Positions 24,765 to 64,000 of a DNA stretch of 64,000 nt are shown piece after piece. Every line of letters starts with the position of its first letter. Within the stretch, counting starts at the first letter, position 1. The stretch is taken from the NCBI GenBank assembly GCA_964016885.1, contig CAXHJY010001301.1, positions 45,608-109,607 of the forward strand, in the 5' to 3' direction. Below the pieces are notes generated by a model that was given only the letters and a program-made list of their open reading frames with translations, did no database searches and was not told where the DNA came from. Position numbers and translations under genes: made by a program. The DNA comes from Eledone cirrhosa (lineage: Eukaryota).

Positions 24765-25601
24765 CTAGCAGTGGTACCTGGCGTTGCACGGGATAAGGTA
24801 TTTTGGAACGCGGGCCGCCAATAGACCTAAAAACTGCATGCCTGGACAATATGTAAAGAAAATAAACCGAATACTCTGATGGCTGGATAATCTTAAAAAT
24901 TTTCTTCGATGAAGCAGGAAAAATGCAGGCCCTAGGGGATCAAGAAAATGAATTTTTTTTTATGTGCATAATAAGCCTTGAAATTTCTGGAAAATCGGCT
25001 AGACGTATAACGCCTCCAAAAAGCCCTAAGAAGCTGAAAAAATGAAGTTTTTCACCTAATGTGGGCCCTAGGCCATAAGAAAGTTGGATTTTCTTTGCTT
25101 ATGGTATGAAGAAGAGACTGACTAATACATAGTTATAATTTCAAGGAAATCGGTCTGAGGTAACGCCTCAAAAAACCCCTAAAAATGTTAAACAACGCAT
25201 AACACTCTCTGAAACATAAGTAATACACATGTAAAGTTTGAAAAAAATCGGTTGGGTACTTCTCGAGTTTTCGGGATTCAAACTCACACACACACACACA
25301 CACATCCTCAGGGAAATGACGTAATGCAGGCAGCCAGACATACAGACAGATATTATAAGGGCGCGACGTTATATGCATGTATCTATCTAAAAGGAGAAAG
25401 ACTAAGAATTATAGAGCGAAATCGCCTAATGCGATCCCTGGGGCATAGAAAATTTTAAATTTATTTTGCTCAGAACACTCCCTGAAACATAAGTATTACA
25501 TGTGTAAAGTTTGAAAACAGTCGGTTGGGTGGTTCTCGAATTTTAGGGATTCAAACTCACACACACACACAGACAGACATCCTCAGTTTTATATATATAG
25601 A
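24765..25601 (-). mobile_element. Non-autonomous Helitron, type B
   Basis: Minus-strand 5' TCTATATATATAAAACTGAGG; 3' hairpin cccgtgcaacgccagg then CTAG|T; homologous to 49254-50100 and 50173-51070. Confidence 0.88.
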
Positions 25602-26481
25602 CTAGCAGAAAACCACCCGGTGGTGGTTTTCTGCTAGCAAATCTAGTATATATACTGATATTGTTGAGATTTGGATGAGAAATGTTTTCGGCACCACATG
25701 TTCACCGTCTCTCGGTGTGTCTTTTACGCATGTATAAATATATATGTTATCTATACGGTGAAATCTTTGAAATAAATATATGTTAAAACGAAAAAGGAGA
25801 AAATAAATAACTGGCGGTTAGAAAAAAATATTCCTATGAAATTTTAATCATACCATTAGGTGTGAATAAGGAAATATTTTTTTTATTGTCAAAACAAATG
25901 TTCAAAAGTTAAACTTCAATTTTTTTGAATTATTTCCAATTTTTTCATGAAATTGAACACTGGACATTGGCTGCTGGAAATGGAAATTAAATCGTATTTA
26001 ATTGTATTTAAATTTCTAACCTTATTTTATTATTTATATTTTTCAATAAGAAATAAAAAAAAAACAACGAAAAAAATTGAACAAATCAAACGTAGGTTAT
26101 GGAACTGCACAATCTGATTAATAAATTACCTCATCAGCAGCAACCTTCTTCAAATGGTCCTTATTATCAGCAGCAACAACTACAAATTCAATGACAACCT
26201 TCTTCGCATGGTGTCGAGTCAGAACCGCCTCGAACTGGTTACTTCTGGCTTGTGCAAGGTGTCTCTATAGCAACCAGCGATTCCCTCAGCCTCAGTGACC
26301 AAAGTCAGGGGAGAGGGGAAGGTAATGTTTCTATAGCACGTGTTTTAGCGTCTATTCACTTTCTCTCTCTCCCTCCCGCTATCCCCCTCTCGGTCTGTCA
26401 CTTTCTTTCACTCTCTCTCTACGCACGTGTATCCACTGTCGGACAGACACAGAGAAATTGCTGGTTATATATATAAGTAGA
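25602..26481 (-). mobile_element. Non-autonomous Helitron, type A, fused directly to type B
   Basis: Minus-strand 5' A|TCTACTTATATATATAACCAGC; 3' end is the palindrome ctagcagaaaaccacc...ggtggttttctgctag, abutting the TC of type B; homologous to 48210-49253. Confidence 0.8.
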
Positions 26482-30404: not shown

Positions 30405-30723
30405 CCCTTTAGCATATAAACTGGCCATGTACAACCAACATTTTCTCACCTGTTTCTGTTCAAACCAGCTGTAATCGGCCACTCATATCAATGTTAAGGT
30501 ATTGTTCTCAAAATAAATAATTGTTTCTATTTTAGGCACAAGGCCAGCAATTACCCAGTACATTACTGGTACTTTATTTTATCGACCCCGTAAGGATGAA
30601 AGGCAAAGTTAACCTTGGCGGGAAAAATAAATAATTTCAATATTATGTGAGATAATTATGTTAGATAAAGCCTTTACTGTGAAAATACAATAGTATGTAT
30701 AGAGTAATGTAAATGCTAAAGGG
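30405..30723 (+). mobile_element. piggyBac-type MITE family 2 with nested minus-strand SINE (30520-30621)
   Basis: TTAA at 30401-30404 and 30724-30727; TIR ccctttagcat. The SINE is flanked by an aaaataaataat duplication. Contains a single aatagtatgtat at 30689-30700. Confidence 0.85.
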
Positions 30724-47464: not shown

Positions 47465-48209
47465 TTTATCTATCTGCAGATCTATCTATCTGCAGATCTA
47501 TCTATGCAGATCTATCTATCTATACATGTCTGCACATCTACCTACGTGTCTGTTTACCTGCCTACCTATACCTCTATCTATCAGCCTACGTATCTAATCA
47601 CATTTTCAATTACCATGGAAAAAAGGAACACAATGTAAACATAAGGGATATTTCCGTGGTGTTGTTGCTAGGCTACAAAGAAGTAGACATGGAAGCGGGA
47701 GATTTGTAATATATCAAACAGACTTGGTGTTGACGAAGATTAAGAATGATTGATATAAACTAGACCAACATTGGAACAAGGAGAGAAAGGAATGAGTAAG
47801 AATAGAGAAATGCCATACTTCATAGATGTCGAAACAAACAAAAATCTGGCAAGGGTGATAGAAAATATTCTACAATTAATTCTTTGGAAGTAATTTATTC
47901 AGCTGACAAAAATTGGTTGTACCTGTAATTCAAAGGGGAAAGCCTTGTCACACACTGTCACACTAAATTCTCATGAGAATTACATTAACCCTTTAACATT
48001 TAAATCGGCTGTATCCGGCCAGAATTATCTCACCCCCTTTCTGTTCAAACCGGCCGTAACCAGCAACTCATACTGATGTTAAGGTATTGTTCTCAAAATC
48101 TCTTAGATTCGATATTATGTGAGGTAAGGCCTTTACCATGAAAATATGATAGTATATATAATAGTATATATAATAGTAAATAAAATAGTAAATATAATAG
48201 TAAATATAA

Positions 48210-48956
48210 TCTCCTTATAATATATAACCAGCAACTTCTGTCTGTCTGTCTGTCCGACAGTGGAAACACGTGCGCGCGTGGTTGCTATCTCTCTCTCTCT
48301 CCAGCTATCCCTCTCTTTTAGTCTGTCTGTTTCTCTCACTCTCACTCTTTCTCTTTGTAACACACTAACATTCCTCCCCTCTATCGCTGTGACGAATGGG
48401 GAGATGGAAGAGGAGGAGGAGAGAGTCACTTCGTCACTTCACCTCTGCCTTTCTTTCTCTCCCCTCTCACTCCCTCATCACGTACAGACATTAGGGCGGT
48501 GGATTGGCAGAATCTGTAGAGTCGGACACCATGCTTCATAGCATGGAGTTACGTCCCTTTACGATCTGAATTCAAATACCGCCGAGGTTAACTTTGCCTT
48601 TCACCCTCACGGGGTCGATAAAATAAAGTACCAGTAATGTACTGGGTATTTGCTGGCCTTGTGCCAAAAGTAGAAACAATTATTAGAAACATTGCTTCAT
48701 TTTTACATATCTAAACATTAGTAAAATAACTAATAATTTCAAAAGTAATTTTTCAATTCCAATTGTTATGAACAGCAAAACATTAATAATAATTTTGTTC
48801 TAAGAAATATATATACATATTTCTGTGTGTGTAATATATATATATATACACACAGAAATATATATATATATATACCGCAGAAATATATATACATTTCTGT
48901 GTGTAATATATATATATGTATATACACAGAAATATATATACATTTCTGTGTGTGTA

Positions 48957-48999
<43 letters not shown>

Positions 49000-49253
49000 G
49001 AAATATATGGGCATTTCTCTGTTTGTCTGTCTGTCCTTCCCTAAAACTCAAATGTAGGTGCTACAGAAATACTACCTTCCCCTTCCTTTCTCCACTTTGG
49101 TACTACCAAGAGAAACACTGTCGCTATAGAAACATTACCTTCCCCTCTCCACTGACTTTGGTCACTGAGGCCGGGGGAATCGCTGGTTGCTATTGAGACA
49201 CCTTACACTAGATTTGCTAGCAGAAAACCGCCCACCGGGTGGTTTTCTGCTAG
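48210..49253 (+). mobile_element. Helitron type A (contains a SINE at ~48495-48685)
   Basis: A|TCTCCTTATAATATATAACCAGC start; ends ctagcagaaaaccgcccaccgggtggttttctgCTAG. Confidence 0.8.
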
Positions 49254-50100
49254 TCTATATATATAAAACTGAGGATGTCTGTGTGTGTGAGTTCGAATCC
49301 CTAAAACTCGAGAACCACCCAACCGACTGTTTTCAAACTTTACACATGTAATACTTATGTTTCAGGGAGTGTTCTGAGCAAAATAAATTAAAAATTTTCT
49401 ATGCCCCAGGGATCGCATTAGGCGATTTAGCGATCCCGCTCTATAATTCTTAGTCTTTCTCCTTTTAGATAGATACATGCATATAACGTCGCGCCCTTAT
49501 AATATCTGTCTGTATGTCTGGCTGCCTGCATTACGTCATTTCCCTGAGGATGTGTGTGTGTGTGTGAGTTTGAATCCCTAAAACTCGAAGTACCCAACCG
49601 ATTTTTTTCAAACTTTACATGTTTCAAGGAGTGTTATGCACATATAAAAATTTAACTTTTTTTTTTAATCTCCTAGCATTAGGTGAATAACTGCGTTTTT
49701 TAAAGATTTTTAGGGGGTTTTTGAGGCGTTACGTCAGACCGATTTCCTTGAAATTGTAACTATGTATTAGTCAGTCTCTTCTTCATACCGTGAGCAAAGA
49801 AAATCCAACTTTCTTATGGCCTAGGGCCTGCATTAGGTAAAAAACTTCCTTTTTTTTCAGCTTTTTAGGGTTTCTTTGAGGCGTTACGTCTAGCCGATTT
49901 TCCCGAAATTTCAAGGCATCACATTGAAAAAATTCATTTTATTGATCCCCTAGGGCCCGTTTCATCGAGGAAAATGTTAAAGATTATCCAGCTATCAGAG
50001 TATTCGGTTTATTTTCTTTATATATTGTCCAGGCATGCAGTTTTTCCACGATTAGGTCTGTTGGCGGCCCGCGTTCAAAAACGCCGAGTACCACTGCTAG
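49254..50100 (+). mobile_element. Helitron type B (copy with damaged 3' hairpin)
   Basis: TCTATATATATAAAACTGAGG start; ends ...aacgccgagtaccactgCTAG and lacks the cccgtgc arm present in the other copies. Confidence 0.85.
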
Positions 50101-50172
50101 TAGTAAATATAATAGTAAATAAAATAGTAAATATAATAGTAAATAAAATAGTAAATATAATAGTAAATATAA

Positions 50173-51070
50173 TCTATATATATAAATCTGAGGATGTCTG
50201 TCTGTGTGTGTGCGAGTTCGAATCCCTAAAACTCGAGAACCACCCAACCGACTGTTTTCAAACTTTACACATGTAATACTTATGTTTCAGGGAGTGTTCT
50301 GAGCAAAATAAATTTCATATTTTCTATGCCCCAGGGACCACATTAGGCGATTTACCGATCTCGCTCTATAATTCTTAGTCTTTCTCTTTTTAGATAGATA
50401 CATACTTATAACGTCGCGCCCTTATAATATCTGTCTGACTGTCTGCATTACGTCACTTCCTTGAGGATGTCTGTATGTGTGTGTGTGTGTGAGTTTGAAT
50501 CCCTAAAACTCGAGAAGTACCCAACCGATTTTTTTCAAACTTTACATGTGTATTACTTATGTTTCAGGGAGAGTTATGCACATAAAAAAATTAAACTTTT
50601 TTTCATCTCCTAGGGCCCGGATTAGGTGAAAAACTGAGTTTAACATTTTAGGGGTTTTTTGAGGCGTTATGGCAGATCGATTTCCTTGAAATTGTAACTA
50701 TGTATTAGTCAGTCTCTTTTTCATACTGTAAGCAACGAAAATCCAACTTTCTTATGGCCTAGGGCCCGCATTAGGTGAAAAACTTCATTTTTCCAGCTTC
50801 TTAGGGGGCGTTACGTCTAGCCGATTTTACCGAAATTTCAAGGCATATTATGCACATAAAAAAAATTCATTTTCTTGATCCCCTAGAGCCCGCATTAGGT
50901 GAAAACCTGCATTTTTCCTGCTTCATCGAGGAAAATCTTAAAGATTATCCAGCCATCAGAGTATTCGGTTTATTTTCTTTACATATTGTCCAAGCATGCA
51001 ATTTTTAGGTTTATTGGCGGCCCATGTTCCAAAATACCTCATCCCGTGCAACGCCGGGTACCACTGCTAG
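50173..51070 (+). mobile_element. Helitron type B (complete termini)
   Basis: A|TCTATATATATAAATCTGAGG start; hairpin cccgtgcaacgccggg, then CTAG|T. Confidence 0.9.
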
Positions 51071-51620
51071 TAGTAAATATAATAGTATATATAATAGTAT
51101 ATATAATAGTAAATATAATAGTATATATAATAGTAAATATAATAGTAAATATAATAGTATATATAATAGTATATATAATAGTATATATAATAGTATATAT
51201 AATAGTAAATATAATAGTATATATAATAGTATATATAATAGTATATATAATAGTATATATAATAGTATATATAATAGTATATATAATAGTATATATAATA
51301 GTATCTATAATAGTATATATAATAGTATATATAATAGTATATTTAATAGTATATTTAATAGTATATATAATAGTATATATAATAGTATATATAATAGTAA
51401 ATATAATAGTATATATAATAGTATATATAATAGTATATATAATAGTATATATAATAGTAAATATAATAGTAAATATAATAGTATATATAATAGTATATAT
51501 AATAGTATATATAATAGTATATATAATAGTATATATAATAGTATATATAATAGTATATATAATAGTAAATATAATAGTATATATAATAGTATATATAATA
51601 GTATATATAATAGTATATAT
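51071..51620. repeat. 12-bp minisatellite (TAGTATATATAA / TAGTAAATATAA), ~46 units
   Basis: Exact 12-bp period; shorter arrays of the same unit at 48150-48209 (5 units) and 50101-50172 (6 units). Confidence 0.95.
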
Positions 51621-51796
51621 AGAGTAATGTAAATGCTAAAGGGTTAAGGGTACATGTGTCTGTGGGATGCTCACCTTCTTGCACATTCCGTTCATGCGCA
51701 TGACTATCCTGTTGATCAAACAACTGGAACATCTGTTGCGGGAACTGATAGAAGCCTAACAACAATCTGCTGTAGAATAGATGCACTGCCTTTGCT

Positions 51797-52090
51797 TGTT
51801 GTGAGAGGTGACTAAGGATACACTGTATCTCTGCCTGTTGTGAGAGGTGATACTGTATTGTGAGAGGTGACACTCTGTGCCTGCTGGTAGTGAGAGGTGA
51901 CACTGTATCCCTGCCTGCTGGTTGTGAGAGGTGACACTCTGTGCCTGCTGGTAGTGAGAGGTGACACTGTATCCCTGCCTGCTGGTTGTGAGAGGTGACA
52001 CTCTGTGCCTGCTGGTTGTGAGAGGTGACACGCTGCCTGTTGGTTGTGAAAGGTGACACTGCATCTCTGATTGTTGTGAGAGGTGACTAA
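51797..52090. repeat. ~30-bp minisatellite (gttgtgagaggtgacactgtatccctgcctgctg)
   Basis: About ten units; unit resembles the head motif of the 9501-type retroposon. Confidence 0.85.
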
Positions 52091-54786
52091 TTGGCTGTAA
52101 GAAATTACCTAAAAAAACGACCTCATGGAAAGTATAAAGTTTTAAATGAGGCCCACAAGACACACCTCTTTGTTAACAAGGAAACAACCTTAAAAACTCT
52201 AGTTGTATTGTGTGATGCGTGTTTGTGTGTTTACATGAAAATTGGTAGGATTAATGATTTCCTTCAAGTTTATTTATTTCCAACACGATAAAATGCATCT
52301 AGCTCACTCTGTAAAGTTCTTATTACTAGGAAGGGAATCCATCTGTAAAATTATACAGGAAAGAGTAAAGCAGGCTTTTAGTCACTTCAAGGTCAAGACA
52401 ACCTTCCTAGTGCTTGTGACATGATAAAATGTACCCAGTACACTCTAAAGTAAGTAGTGCCAGGAAGGACATAACAGCTGTAAAAACCATGCTGATAAAT
52501 GGAATGAGAACTTTAAAATAAACAACTGTCACAGAACCAAGGTATACCAGTTTGGTATGAGAAAGTTTAACCCCTTTGACACCAAACTACCTGAAGCCAC
52601 CCTTTGTTCTATGATACAAAACTGTTTGCTTTAAAGTGTTTATATTTAACTAAAAGCCTTCCATATTTTTATGTAATAAACCATGTTTCAAAGAGCAGCT
52701 TAATAATTGTTTCTATTTTTGACACAAGGTCAGCAATTACCCCAGTACATTACTGGTACTTTATTTTATTGACCCCGTAAGGATGAAAGCAAAGTTTCAT
52801 TATATTACTAAATTCCTTCAATATTTTTAATTACTTTCAAAATGATTTGTAAACCATAGGCAGTCTTTCATTAGAAATTTAGGTATTAAAAAGATTTAGT
52901 AATAATTCCTGCATTTTTGAGATCAATCATCTGGGACATGATGTGTTGTGATTCATTCTCTGCCATGAACCATCCCAGTTTGGCTGCAAACCTGGACACA
53001 GCAGCTTGCAATTTTTATGTAGAATAAATACTACACATTTATCATCAACCAATGAGTGAATATCTTTCTTGCCTCTTCTTTACCTTATCATAACTTGTCA
53101 AGGAAGGGTTGTTTGCTCAACTTTCTCTAGCAGCACTGAAGTGATTCTGTGTCAACCTTTATCTCAACACTGTCCTTATTGTCAAAGTATTGAAGATATT
53201 AAACAAAAAATAGAATATTATATTCCTTGAAATTTCTATGAGACTATTTTTGCTAATTTTTAAATATTTTCTTTTCTTTGATGCCAGTTTTGTTTTATAA
53301 CTCGGTTTTCAGTTTCAATGTAATAATCTTTGTGTTTTTCTGGAATGAGATATTTTTCTTTTATCTCACTCTATTTGATCTCTTTGTCGATGTCACAAGG
53401 GTGAAGAAGATCGTTTTTCTTTTCTTGGAAGGGTATAGACATAATGAAAAATGGTTACAGTTAAAAAAGATGTATCATTTAGGGATTAAAAAAAATCTTT
53501 CTTTTTTTGTTCTGCATTGATATTTGTTGTTTAATAAAATGTTTGTTGTTGTCTTGTAAGAACCAGAACTAGTCACAGAAGTTGTCTTGTCTTGTAAGAA
53601 CTACAGCTAACAGAAGTATTGTTTTGTAAGATATAAAGTAAAAAGATAAAATAAAATAATTTTTAATCAACCCTTTTGATACCAAACAGCTTGAAACCGC
53701 CTCTGGTTCTACGTTACAAAACTGTTTCTTTTTAGATATTTATATTTATCTAAAGACATTGCATCATAAATTTTCTGTAAGAACTTTGTGTTATATTCCA
53801 AACACCAGCTTAATAATGAGAAATTTAATTATATTACTATAAATTCTTACAAATTTTTGATAATTTTCAACCTAAGATTATAATTTTATGTAAGAACCTT
53901 TATATTCTAAACACCAGCTTAATAAGAAAGTTATATAACTAAGGCCTTCTAAATTCTTGATTATTTTCAAACTGATTTTAAAATGATAGGCAGTGTCTTT
54001 CATTAGAAATATAATGAAAGAATTAATGACATAGGCAGTGTCTTTGATTATGTCATTAACCTTTTCATTACTATATTTCTAATCAGTCTCTTTCATTAGA
54101 AATATAGTAATGAAAGGGTTAATTAATAACCTATGTTGTGTGTTACATGAGTTAACAATCAAGTAAAAATAGTGAAATAAAAGAATGTCATCATTTCTCT
54201 GTAGTGTAATTGCAGGAGTGTTACAATCTAATTTTGTTTCATTTGTTAGTAATATTATTATTAGTTGCTGCAGGTTTTCTTCTGTCATTGGCATCTGTAG
54301 TTAGTTATTCCTGTTAATACTACCAGTTAGTCTAGTTAATATAGATCATGACTCAGCATGTTATCAGTTCTTCTAGTTAATATATATATTCTAGTTAATA
54401 TGTGAGTGATTAGTGTAATACAAATTATTCTAGTTAATACATATTCTAGTTAATGTATATTTTAGTTAATTTATATATTCTACATATGATATATATTCTA
54501 GTTTAGAATATATCATAACTAGAACACATTCTAGTTAAGATGCATAGTCTAGTTAAGACGCATAGTCTAGTTAGGATGTTTATTCTAAATATTATGAGTG
54601 ATCAGCATACTAACAGTCAAGTTAGTATATATATTATGTTTATTGGTCAGTAGTATACTACCAGTTATTTTAGTTGAAATATATTCTAATTAAGATATTA
54701 CTAACAGTCAAATTAATATATATTATAATGACTAGCACAAAAAAACCACCCTATGGGTGGTTTTCTGCTAGCATGTGTAGTGTGTA

Positions 54787-57612: not shown

Positions 57613-62450
<4,838 letters not shown>

Positions 62451-62882
62451 TATTAATAAGAGGAATTCCAACTTTGTCTGATTTACTCGTTTTATTTACA
62501 ATCCTTTAAAATATATATAATGGTATTATAATGAAATAGTATGATAGAATATTAAATTCTAAGTGTTATTGAACAAGTACTTTCATGCTTTCGCAATCTT
62601 CAGGTTCATGATATGTGGTGACAGTCGAGTTTGCAATTTTCAACAGTTGAAAATTGCAAACTCGACTGTCACCACATATCATGAACCTGAAGATTGCGAA
62701 AGCATGAAAGTACTTGTTCAATTAACACTTAGAATTTAATATTCTATCATACTATTTCATTATAATACCATTATATATATTTTAAAGGATTGTAAATAAA
62801 ACGAGTAAATCAGACAAAGTTGGAATTCCTCTTATTAATATAATCTTCTATACACAATCATACACACCCGTGTATATTTACC
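62451..62882 (+). mobile_element. Penelope-like pLTR fragment as a near-perfect 390-bp palindrome
   Basis: Arms 62451-62644 and 62646-62840 are reverse complements around a single base (62645), with one 1-nt indel visible. Each arm carries a minimal hammerhead; the right arm extends ~40 nt further. Confidence 0.75.
62682..62720 (+). ncRNA. Minimal type I hammerhead ribozyme (mirror copy on minus strand at 62570-62608)
   Basis: tgaac-CTGAAGA-t-tgc/gaaa/gca-t-GAAA-gtac-T-T-gttca. Stem I tgaac:gttca, intact CUGAnGA and GAAA cores, GNRA-capped stem II, palindromic AGUACU stem III. Predicted cleavage after 62715. Confidence 0.7.
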
Positions 62883-62884
62883 TA

Positions 62885-64000
<1,116 letters not shown>

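What the first reader, a model, noticed from the sequence alone, without database searches (positions are those of the whole stretch)
48150..51620. Helitrons interleaved in register with a 12-mer array grown from a single-copy target site
Seen: the empty sister MITE has one aatagtatgtat (30689-30700). Here that site has become 5 units, Helitron A+B, 6 units, Helitron B, then ~46 units. Every Helitron sits at the same phase (TATAA|TAGTA), spacers are exact multiples of 12 bp, and the rare variant TAGTAAATAAAA occurs in both short spacers. The unit's TAGT mimics the Helitron CTAG|T end. Established: Helitrons insert at A|T without target duplication. Inference: either RepHel nicking or rolling-circle synthesis amplifies the target, seeding minisatellites and new landing pads, or a pre-existing array is a phase-specific Helitron trap. 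The damaged hairpin of the first B copy could also allow read-through.
Basis: partly seen in the sequence, partly recalled or inferred. Interest (0 to 1): 0.72.

Follow-up and report, generated by a model that had tools for sequence, protein, structure and literature searches.

The report
Slippage minisatellite that traps Helitrons
A 12-letter repeat inside a small cut-and-paste transposon likely grew by ordinary copying slippage, as the same duplication occurs in 31 sister copies that carry no rolling-circle transposon (Helitron), and the Helitrons line up with it likely because each repeat unit copies a landing spot that many Helitron families also use in unrepeated sister copies.

Summary
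The anatomy is real: 5 units, Helitron A+B1, 6 units, Helitron B2, 45 units plus a terminal one, inside a TTAA-flanked MITE. The idea that Helitrons made the array is not supported; the trap reading is. The MITE natively carries about 1.7 copies of the 12-mer. Extra units occur in 31 other copies (up to 6 extra), none with a Helitron end, and have slippage-hybrid structure. Conversely, 44 of 47 same-strand hairpin-type Helitron ends found at this MITE site (11 distinct termini) sit at the same AA|TAGT base, none with an extra 12-mer unit. B1 and B2 share no derived change, so there were two independent array insertions. Of 90 B ends, 1 abuts a complex minisatellite and none has a true target duplication. 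Left over: the phase preference exceeds a local base-composition model, two hits in one array are improbable at the single-copy rate, and the 46-unit block is the longest such array found and younger than B2. The scan earlier noted phase-locked Helitrons in another minisatellite and a LINE targeting this MITE's 72-bp repeat. Ordinary kind; low to moderate interest.

The parts
47985..47988 (+). TTAA target duplication, left of host MITE
   Evidence: sequence
47989..48149 (+). Left half of host MITE (14-bp terminal inverted repeat with 1 mismatch; 8.3% from the family majority)
48150..48209 (+). 12-mer block 1: five units (T,T,X,A,A)
48210..49253 (+). Non-autonomous Helitron-like element A: TC start, long 3' palindrome ending CTAG, abutting B1's start
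   Evidence: (hairpin -17.7 kcal/mol, z -8.4)
49254..50100 (+). Non-autonomous Helitron B1; 3.5% from family majority; left arm of 3' hairpin deleted
50101..50172 (+). 12-mer block 2: six units (A,X,A,X,A,A)
50173..51070 (+). Non-autonomous Helitron B2; 2.8% from family majority; independent of B1
51071..51621 (+). 12-mer block 3: 45 units plus the MITE's own terminal 11-mer; 91% A+T; only two mutation events besides the A/T variant
51622..51647 (+). Right end of host MITE with inverted repeat, and TTAA at 51644-51647
30405..30723 (+). Sister MITE without 12-mer expansion (paralogue, not an allele); seed at 30689-30700
24765..26481 (-). Second A+B pair with no array; its B is B1's closest sampled relative (4.6%)

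Best explanation
A TTAA-flanked MITE carries a built-in imperfect 12-bp near-duplication that likely expanded by replication slippage into a short minisatellite, and two Helitron B copies likely inserted into it afterwards and independently, both at the AA|TAGT base that Helitrons occupy in many unexpanded copies of the same MITE. Shown: the seed, the Helitron-free expansions, the shared phase in single-copy MITEs, the absence of target duplication, and the independence of B1 and B2. Inferred: slippage as the mechanism; the order array first, then insertions (X lies on both sides of A+B1, and TAGT-containing units left of the first insertion need an intact site); A arriving with B1 or later in front of B1's start; continued growth of the right-hand block after B2 arrived; and a 92% A+T array being a better-than-average target because it unwinds easily.
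For: Seed: 7,937 exact copies of seed plus MITE end. Helitron-free expansion: 30 of 31 loci with at least one extra unit are elsewhere; they have 1, 2 or 5 extra units, and C11 has 6 extra with both A and T variants. 0 of these 31 has a Helitron end in the fetched DNA (positive control). Extra units end in AA like the upstream half-copy, not AG like the downstream one, so the repeat boundary lies in the ATATA microhomology and straddles the insertion base. Phase: of 56 hits, 4 dropped as not Helitron ends; 44 of 47 hairpin-type ends at AA|TAGT, in 14 of 14 clusters with 11 distinct termini; 5 A-type ends lie elsewhere. In 34 of the 44 the 5' junction was recovered and rejoins the MITE with no extra unit. 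L107 and L171 are A+B pairs in this exact site with no array. Only this locus has a Helitron end followed by the repeat. B1 vs B2: 6.1% apart, 0 shared derived changes, one clade rejected at p-AU 0.034. The same MITE region makes 60/72-bp arrays on a large scale (30,954 unit junctions vs 5,481 MITE ends) with a junction about 25 bp from the Helitron site. A young Helitron family sits in such arrays in 12 of 15 hits, the older B family in 2 of 10 (Fisher p 0.005), as expected if arrays collect insertions in proportion to units present at the time.
Against: Two hits in one array are improbable at the single-copy rate (P about 0.0002-0.04 for 12-57 units), so the array must be a stronger trap than its unit count implies, or something else links the two. 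The long block is the longest 12-mer array found, abuts B2's 3' end and is too uniform to be as old as B2 (2 events vs 12-14 expected, P<0.001). Helitron-bearing MITE loci carry 43/60/72-bp arrays more often per locus (20 of 45) than unselected MITE ends (5 of 40; p 0.002), though less often per unit (22 of 47 vs 85%). A base-by-base model from 90 B flanks gives this phase only about a quarter to a third of same-strand weight, not 94%, so why this base is preferred is unexplained. In reverse orientation 12 ends fall at three other phases, so overall use is about 44 of 64.
Confidence: 0.8

Rival explanations
1. Slippage seeded the array, but repeated transposase nicking at the resident Helitron 3' end sped up its later growth, creating more landing sites in a feedback loop.
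For: Longest 12-mer block found, starting exactly at B2's 3' end and younger than B2; double insertion improbable at base rate; per-locus excess of longer-period arrays at Helitron-bearing MITEs; TA footprints at maize Helitron sites reported (PMC10095026, passages).
Against: No 12-mer growth at 52 other Helitron ends in this site; 1 of 90 B ends abuts a complex minisatellite vs 6 of 90 flagged 200 bp away; (TA)n adjacency 17 vs 10 of 90, p 0.21; long arrays in this MITE grow to 40 units with no Helitron inside (L096); the block behind B1's 3' end stayed at 6 units.
Confidence: 0.1
2. Helitron insertion itself created the array from a single site, by target amplification or rolling-circle read-through past B1's damaged hairpin.
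For: B1's hairpin is damaged; all junctions are in register.
Against: 31 Helitron-free expansions; no duplication at 34 recovered junction pairs in this site or at 25 of 27 other B sites, the 2 exceptions being simple AT repeats; copying 12 bases from the nick would give units ending in AG; no second copy of a Helitron end plus repeat.
Confidence: 0.03
3. One Helitron insertion was duplicated along with array units by unequal exchange, giving B1 and B2 in register.
For: Both 5' flanks read X,A,A; this process occurs elsewhere (two family-C copies in L153 identical over 650 bp).
Against: B1 and B2 share no derived change, have different deletions, and B1's closest relative is the 24765 copy.
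Confidence: 0.03
4. The long block's length is inflated by assembly error on an unplaced contig.
For: The window lies on contig C1328, not on one of the large contigs; no contig spans the array.
Against: Units carry ordered variants (A/T mix, one TCT, two adjacent TTT); spacer 2 and the B2 junction match short-read contigs. It would not affect the phase result.
Confidence: 0.04

Closest known systems
Canonical non-autonomous Helitrons (Helibat/Helraiser type; PMC4778049, passages read; wheat Xuan, PMC13286980, passages read)
   Same: 5' TC, 3' CTAG, subterminal hairpin, insertion between A and T, no target duplication, AT-rich preference strongest on the 3' flank.
   Different: Here many families converge on one base of one MITE; the passages read describe only AT plus AT-rich context. 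The transposase was not looked for.
MITE-derived tandem repeats: Xenopus miDNA4 and Xstir (as reviewed in PMC12628747 and PMC9659126, passages read; originals not seen), Donax DTC84 (PMC3879986, passages read)
   Same: An internal MITE segment exists as a monomer or as arrays of variable length, attributed to AT-rich microhomologies.
   Different: One subterminal region here yields 12-, 43-, 60- and 72-bp periods, and each unit carries a Helitron target.
Lepidopteran Helitron-like elements disrupting (GAAA)n microsatellites (Coates et al. 2010; title seen only in the reference list of PMC3789558)
   Same: Helitron-like elements found inside a tandem repeat.
   Different: There a microsatellite; here a MITE-born minisatellite with paralogous empty and unexpanded controls. 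Details not read.
Helitron/Helentron-borne satellite arrays (oyster, PMC7492417, listing only; rolling-circle tandemisation as reviewed in PMC12628747)
   Same: Helitrons and tandem arrays together.
   Different: Those arrays are inside the element or are tandem Helitron pieces; this one is host DNA outside the TC...CTAG limits.

Membership tests
Canonical non-autonomous Helitron (B1, B2) | 5' TC and 3' CTRR termini | tested here: met
Canonical non-autonomous Helitron (B1, B2) | Hairpin 10-15 bp before the 3' end | tested here: inconclusive
   B2 folds a weak hairpin in place (-4.4 kcal/mol, z -1.2); B1 has lost an arm
Canonical non-autonomous Helitron (B1, B2) | Insertion between A and T without target duplication | tested here: met
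   A at -1 in 27 of 27, T at +1 in 85 of 88; duplication of 4 bp or less in 25 of 27
Canonical non-autonomous Helitron (B1, B2) | Dispersed multi-copy family | tested here: met
   2,607 exact 3' ends
Canonical non-autonomous Helitron (B1, B2) | Mobilised by a RepHel transposase | not tested
   No autonomous partner searched for
piggyBac-type MITE (host) | TTAA target duplication and CCC...GGG terminal inverted repeats | tested here: met
piggyBac-type MITE (host) | Matching DDD transposase partner | not tested
   The piggyBac label rests on recalled TTAA specificity, which Kolobok elements share
MITE-derived minisatellite | Unit derives from an internal MITE segment present as monomer in other copies | tested here: met
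MITE-derived minisatellite | Variable unit number among paralogues, independent of other inserts | tested here: met
   0, 1, 2, 5, 6 extra units in Helitron-free copies
MITE-derived minisatellite | Allelic length variation | tested here: inconclusive
   No record spans an array
Helitron-generated array (rolling-circle tandemisation) | Repeat unit is Helitron sequence or lies inside the element | tested here: not met
   Unit is MITE sequence outside the termini
Helitron-generated array (rolling-circle tandemisation) | Arrays depend on a Helitron being present | tested here: not met
   31 of 32 expanded loci lack a Helitron end

The most novel reading that the evidence does not exclude
Slippage seeds the array, but transposase activity at a resident Helitron end drives its runaway growth, and each new unit is a base-precise landing site shared by at least 11 Helitron termini, so Helitrons and their target minisatellite amplify each other.
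Probability: 0.1. Interest if true: 0.7.

Novelty: new member of a known kind. Interest (0 to 1): 0.3.

Why it matters
As read here it is a clean natural control showing that Helitrons in register with a repeat need not have made it. The useful by-product is a defined short target that 11 Helitron termini hit at one base in one orientation, more than base composition predicts; it offers a direct substrate for asking what a Helitron transposase reads beyond A|T. If the feedback reading were true, Helitrons would be a source of host minisatellite growth, which I found no paper showing (searches; the library lacks most subscription journals).

Tried and rejected
One search's pattern had two extra letters, so it found 64 copies of a MITE variant rather than array ends; the 30 examined had no array. 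DNA search with the right flank found no allelic or duplicate copy of the locus. CTAG|T mimicry rejected: it predicts a cut at TAG|T; only L141 has such a 3' flank and its 5' junction is at the usual base. Duplication of one insertion rejected. Read-through copy not found. C11 array as a Helitron excision footprint: not excluded for one locus, implausible for 31, and the reported maize footprints are TA repeats or clean. A position-weight model from 90 B flanks failed to predict the phase. Public runs: one sample holds the stretch and may be the assembly's own; the RAD run laid does not cover the unique flank; no verdict on array length or empty alleles. Samples are not random: B ends are the first 90 of 2,607 and MITE ends the first 40 of 5,481, all on contig C1; exact patterns miss decayed copies. 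No supplements were read.

Full report
Observation. The window lies in a 3.0-Gb animal genome at G000:C1328. parses the region as five 12-mer units (48150-48209), element A (48210-49253), B1 (49254-50100), six units (50101-50172), B2 (50173-51070) and 45 units plus a terminal 11-mer (51071-51621). All lie inside a MITE with TTAA duplications and 14-bp inverted ends (47989-51643). Three exact units in a row occur at only two loci genome-wide. A abuts B1's start, so the array has two insertion points, not three; 19 of 46 B copies with a recognisable start likewise abut another Helitron-like end.

Where the repeat comes from. The MITE's 3' region reads AAATAYAATAGT then AWATATAGAGT, an imperfect 12-bp near-duplication present in 7,937 exact matches. 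A search for one extra unit before the MITE end gave 31 loci: this one and 30 others. Of the 30, 28 have one extra unit, one has two and one has five. The C11 locus is a complete sister MITE with six extra units, mixing the same A and T variants as here. None of these 31 has a Helitron 3' end or 5'-like start in the fetched DNA (1.5 kb each side, about 5 kb for C11), while the same queries find the window's ends. Extra units end in AA like the upstream half-copy. Copying 12 bases downstream of the insertion base would give AG, so the repeat boundary lies in the ATATA microhomology and the unit straddles the insertion base. That needs an intact site and fits slippage (inference). The same region also makes 43-, 60- and 72-bp arrays: 30,954 exact 60/72-bp unit junctions against 5,481 exact MITE ends, with a junction about 25 bp from the Helitron site.

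Why the Helitrons are in register. A search for Helitron-type ends within 26 bases of the MITE end motif gave 56 hits. I dropped 4 that lack a Helitron end. Of 47 hairpin-type ends, 44 are at AA|TAGT (two of them assigned from the 5' junction), 2 are five bases upstream and 1 is nine downstream; 5 A-type ends lie elsewhere, 3 clearly at +7 and 2 ambiguous. The 47 fall in 14 clusters with 11 distinct termini, every cluster having a member at this base, so the result does not rest on one copied composite, though copies within a cluster may not be independent. In 34 of the 44 the 5' junction was recovered and joins the MITE's left half with no extra unit. L107 and L171 are A+B pairs at this base with no array. 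In reverse orientation 13 hits gave 12 Helitron-like ends at three other phases; the two patterns differ in sensitivity, and the pooled share is about 44 of 64. Two insertions sharing this phase is therefore unsurprising. No other locus has a Helitron end followed by the 12-mer repeat.

Independence and order. Among 27 full-length B copies, B1 and B2 are 3.5% and 2.8% from the majority and 6.1% apart. They share no derived substitution, and holding them as one clade is rejected at p-AU 0.034. B2's best other match among 40 scored of 4,436 candidates is 93%. The host MITE is 8.3% from its family majority, so it is older. X on both sides of A+B1 implies the array existed before that insertion. 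The short blocks are compatible with the Helitrons' age (1 event vs about 3 expected, P 0.14-0.24), but the long block is not (2 vs 12-14, P<0.001), so most of it grew or was homogenised after B2 arrived.

Do Helitron ends attract arrays in general? For the first 90 of 2,607 B ends (all on C1), 4 were flagged as abutting a minisatellite, three of them nearly pure A+T and one complex (L043), against 6 at a control position 200 bp away; 0 of 27 clean 5' flanks did. (TA)n adjacency was 17 vs 10 of 90 (p 0.21). Duplication was 4 bp or less at 25 of 27 sites, and the other two lie in simple AT repeats. Against my reading: Helitron-bearing MITE loci have 43/60/72-bp arrays in 20 of 45 cases against 5 of 40 unselected MITE ends (p 0.002). 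Per unit they are depleted (22 of 47 vs 85%), and the young family C is in arrays in 12 of 15 hits against 2 of 10 for the older B family. This fits arrays collecting insertions as they grow, but does not exclude some stimulation.

What stays unexplained. A base-by-base model from the 90 flanks gives the preferred base only about a quarter to a third of the same-strand weight, so an extra determinant is likely. Two hits in one array have probability about 0.0002-0.04 at the single-copy rate, with only three arrays of five or more extra units known. The array is 92% A+T; Helraiser cleaves only single-stranded DNA and favours AT-rich 3' flanks (PMC4778049, passages), so easier unwinding is my inferred reason. 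Public data gave no verdict on length or alleles.

Comparison and verdict. A, B1 and B2 behave as canonical non-autonomous Helitrons (passages). The array behaves as a MITE-derived tandem repeat like miDNA4 or Xstir as described in reviews (passages; originals not seen). It fails the tests for a Helitron-generated array. Searches listed no paper on a one-base, multi-family Helitron site in a MITE, within a library lacking most subscription journals; no supplements were read. The species was not determined; PMC13282606 (passages) was read on a guess and is not relied on. Verdict: real feature, trap reading about 0.8, new member of a known kind, interest 0.3.

Noticed in passing
genome-wide; e.g. 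L096 (C1:30452000-30459500), L153, L163: The host MITE's 3' region is a prolific minisatellite seed: 30,954 exact 60/72-bp unit junctions, plus a 43-bp form (L145), often with higher-order patterns.
   Followed up: partly
L113, L122, L142, L145, L146, L150, L153, L154, L156, L162, L163: A young Helitron family (about 1 change per 150 bases at its 3' end) accounts for 15 of 47 insertions at the site, 12 of them in arrays; it may be more site-specific than B. Its total copy number was not counted.
   Followed up: partly
L105, L117, L151 (also L124, L125): Elements ending in the A-type long palindrome use a different base of the same MITE site (+7), suggesting that target phase depends on the family.
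   Followed up: no
L153: Two family-C copies in one 60/72-bp array are identical over 650 bp, with matching unit patterns: duplication within the array or an assembly duplication.
   Followed up: partly
L043 (C1:11971487-11974507): A Helitron B copy inside a roughly 52-bp minisatellite with units on both sides.
   Followed up: partly
window 24765-25601 and 49254-50100: B1 and the B of the second A+B pair are closest sampled relatives and share near-matching deletions, 24 kb apart; their A partners share ends but differ inside.
   Followed up: partly
window about 12960 and 54720-54771: Further Helitron-type 3' ends: one hairpin-type and one A-type palindrome.
   Followed up: no
window 51858-52087 and 57644-64000: A 30/64-bp minisatellite right of the MITE, and a (TA)-rich satellite of more than 6 kb running off the window's end.
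   Followed up: no
MITE target, e.g. window 51611-51624: The T-variant target's 3' flank contains the reverse complement of the common Helitron start (TCTATATATA), so the incoming 5' end could pair with the target; the A variant, also used, matches only partly.
   Followed up: no
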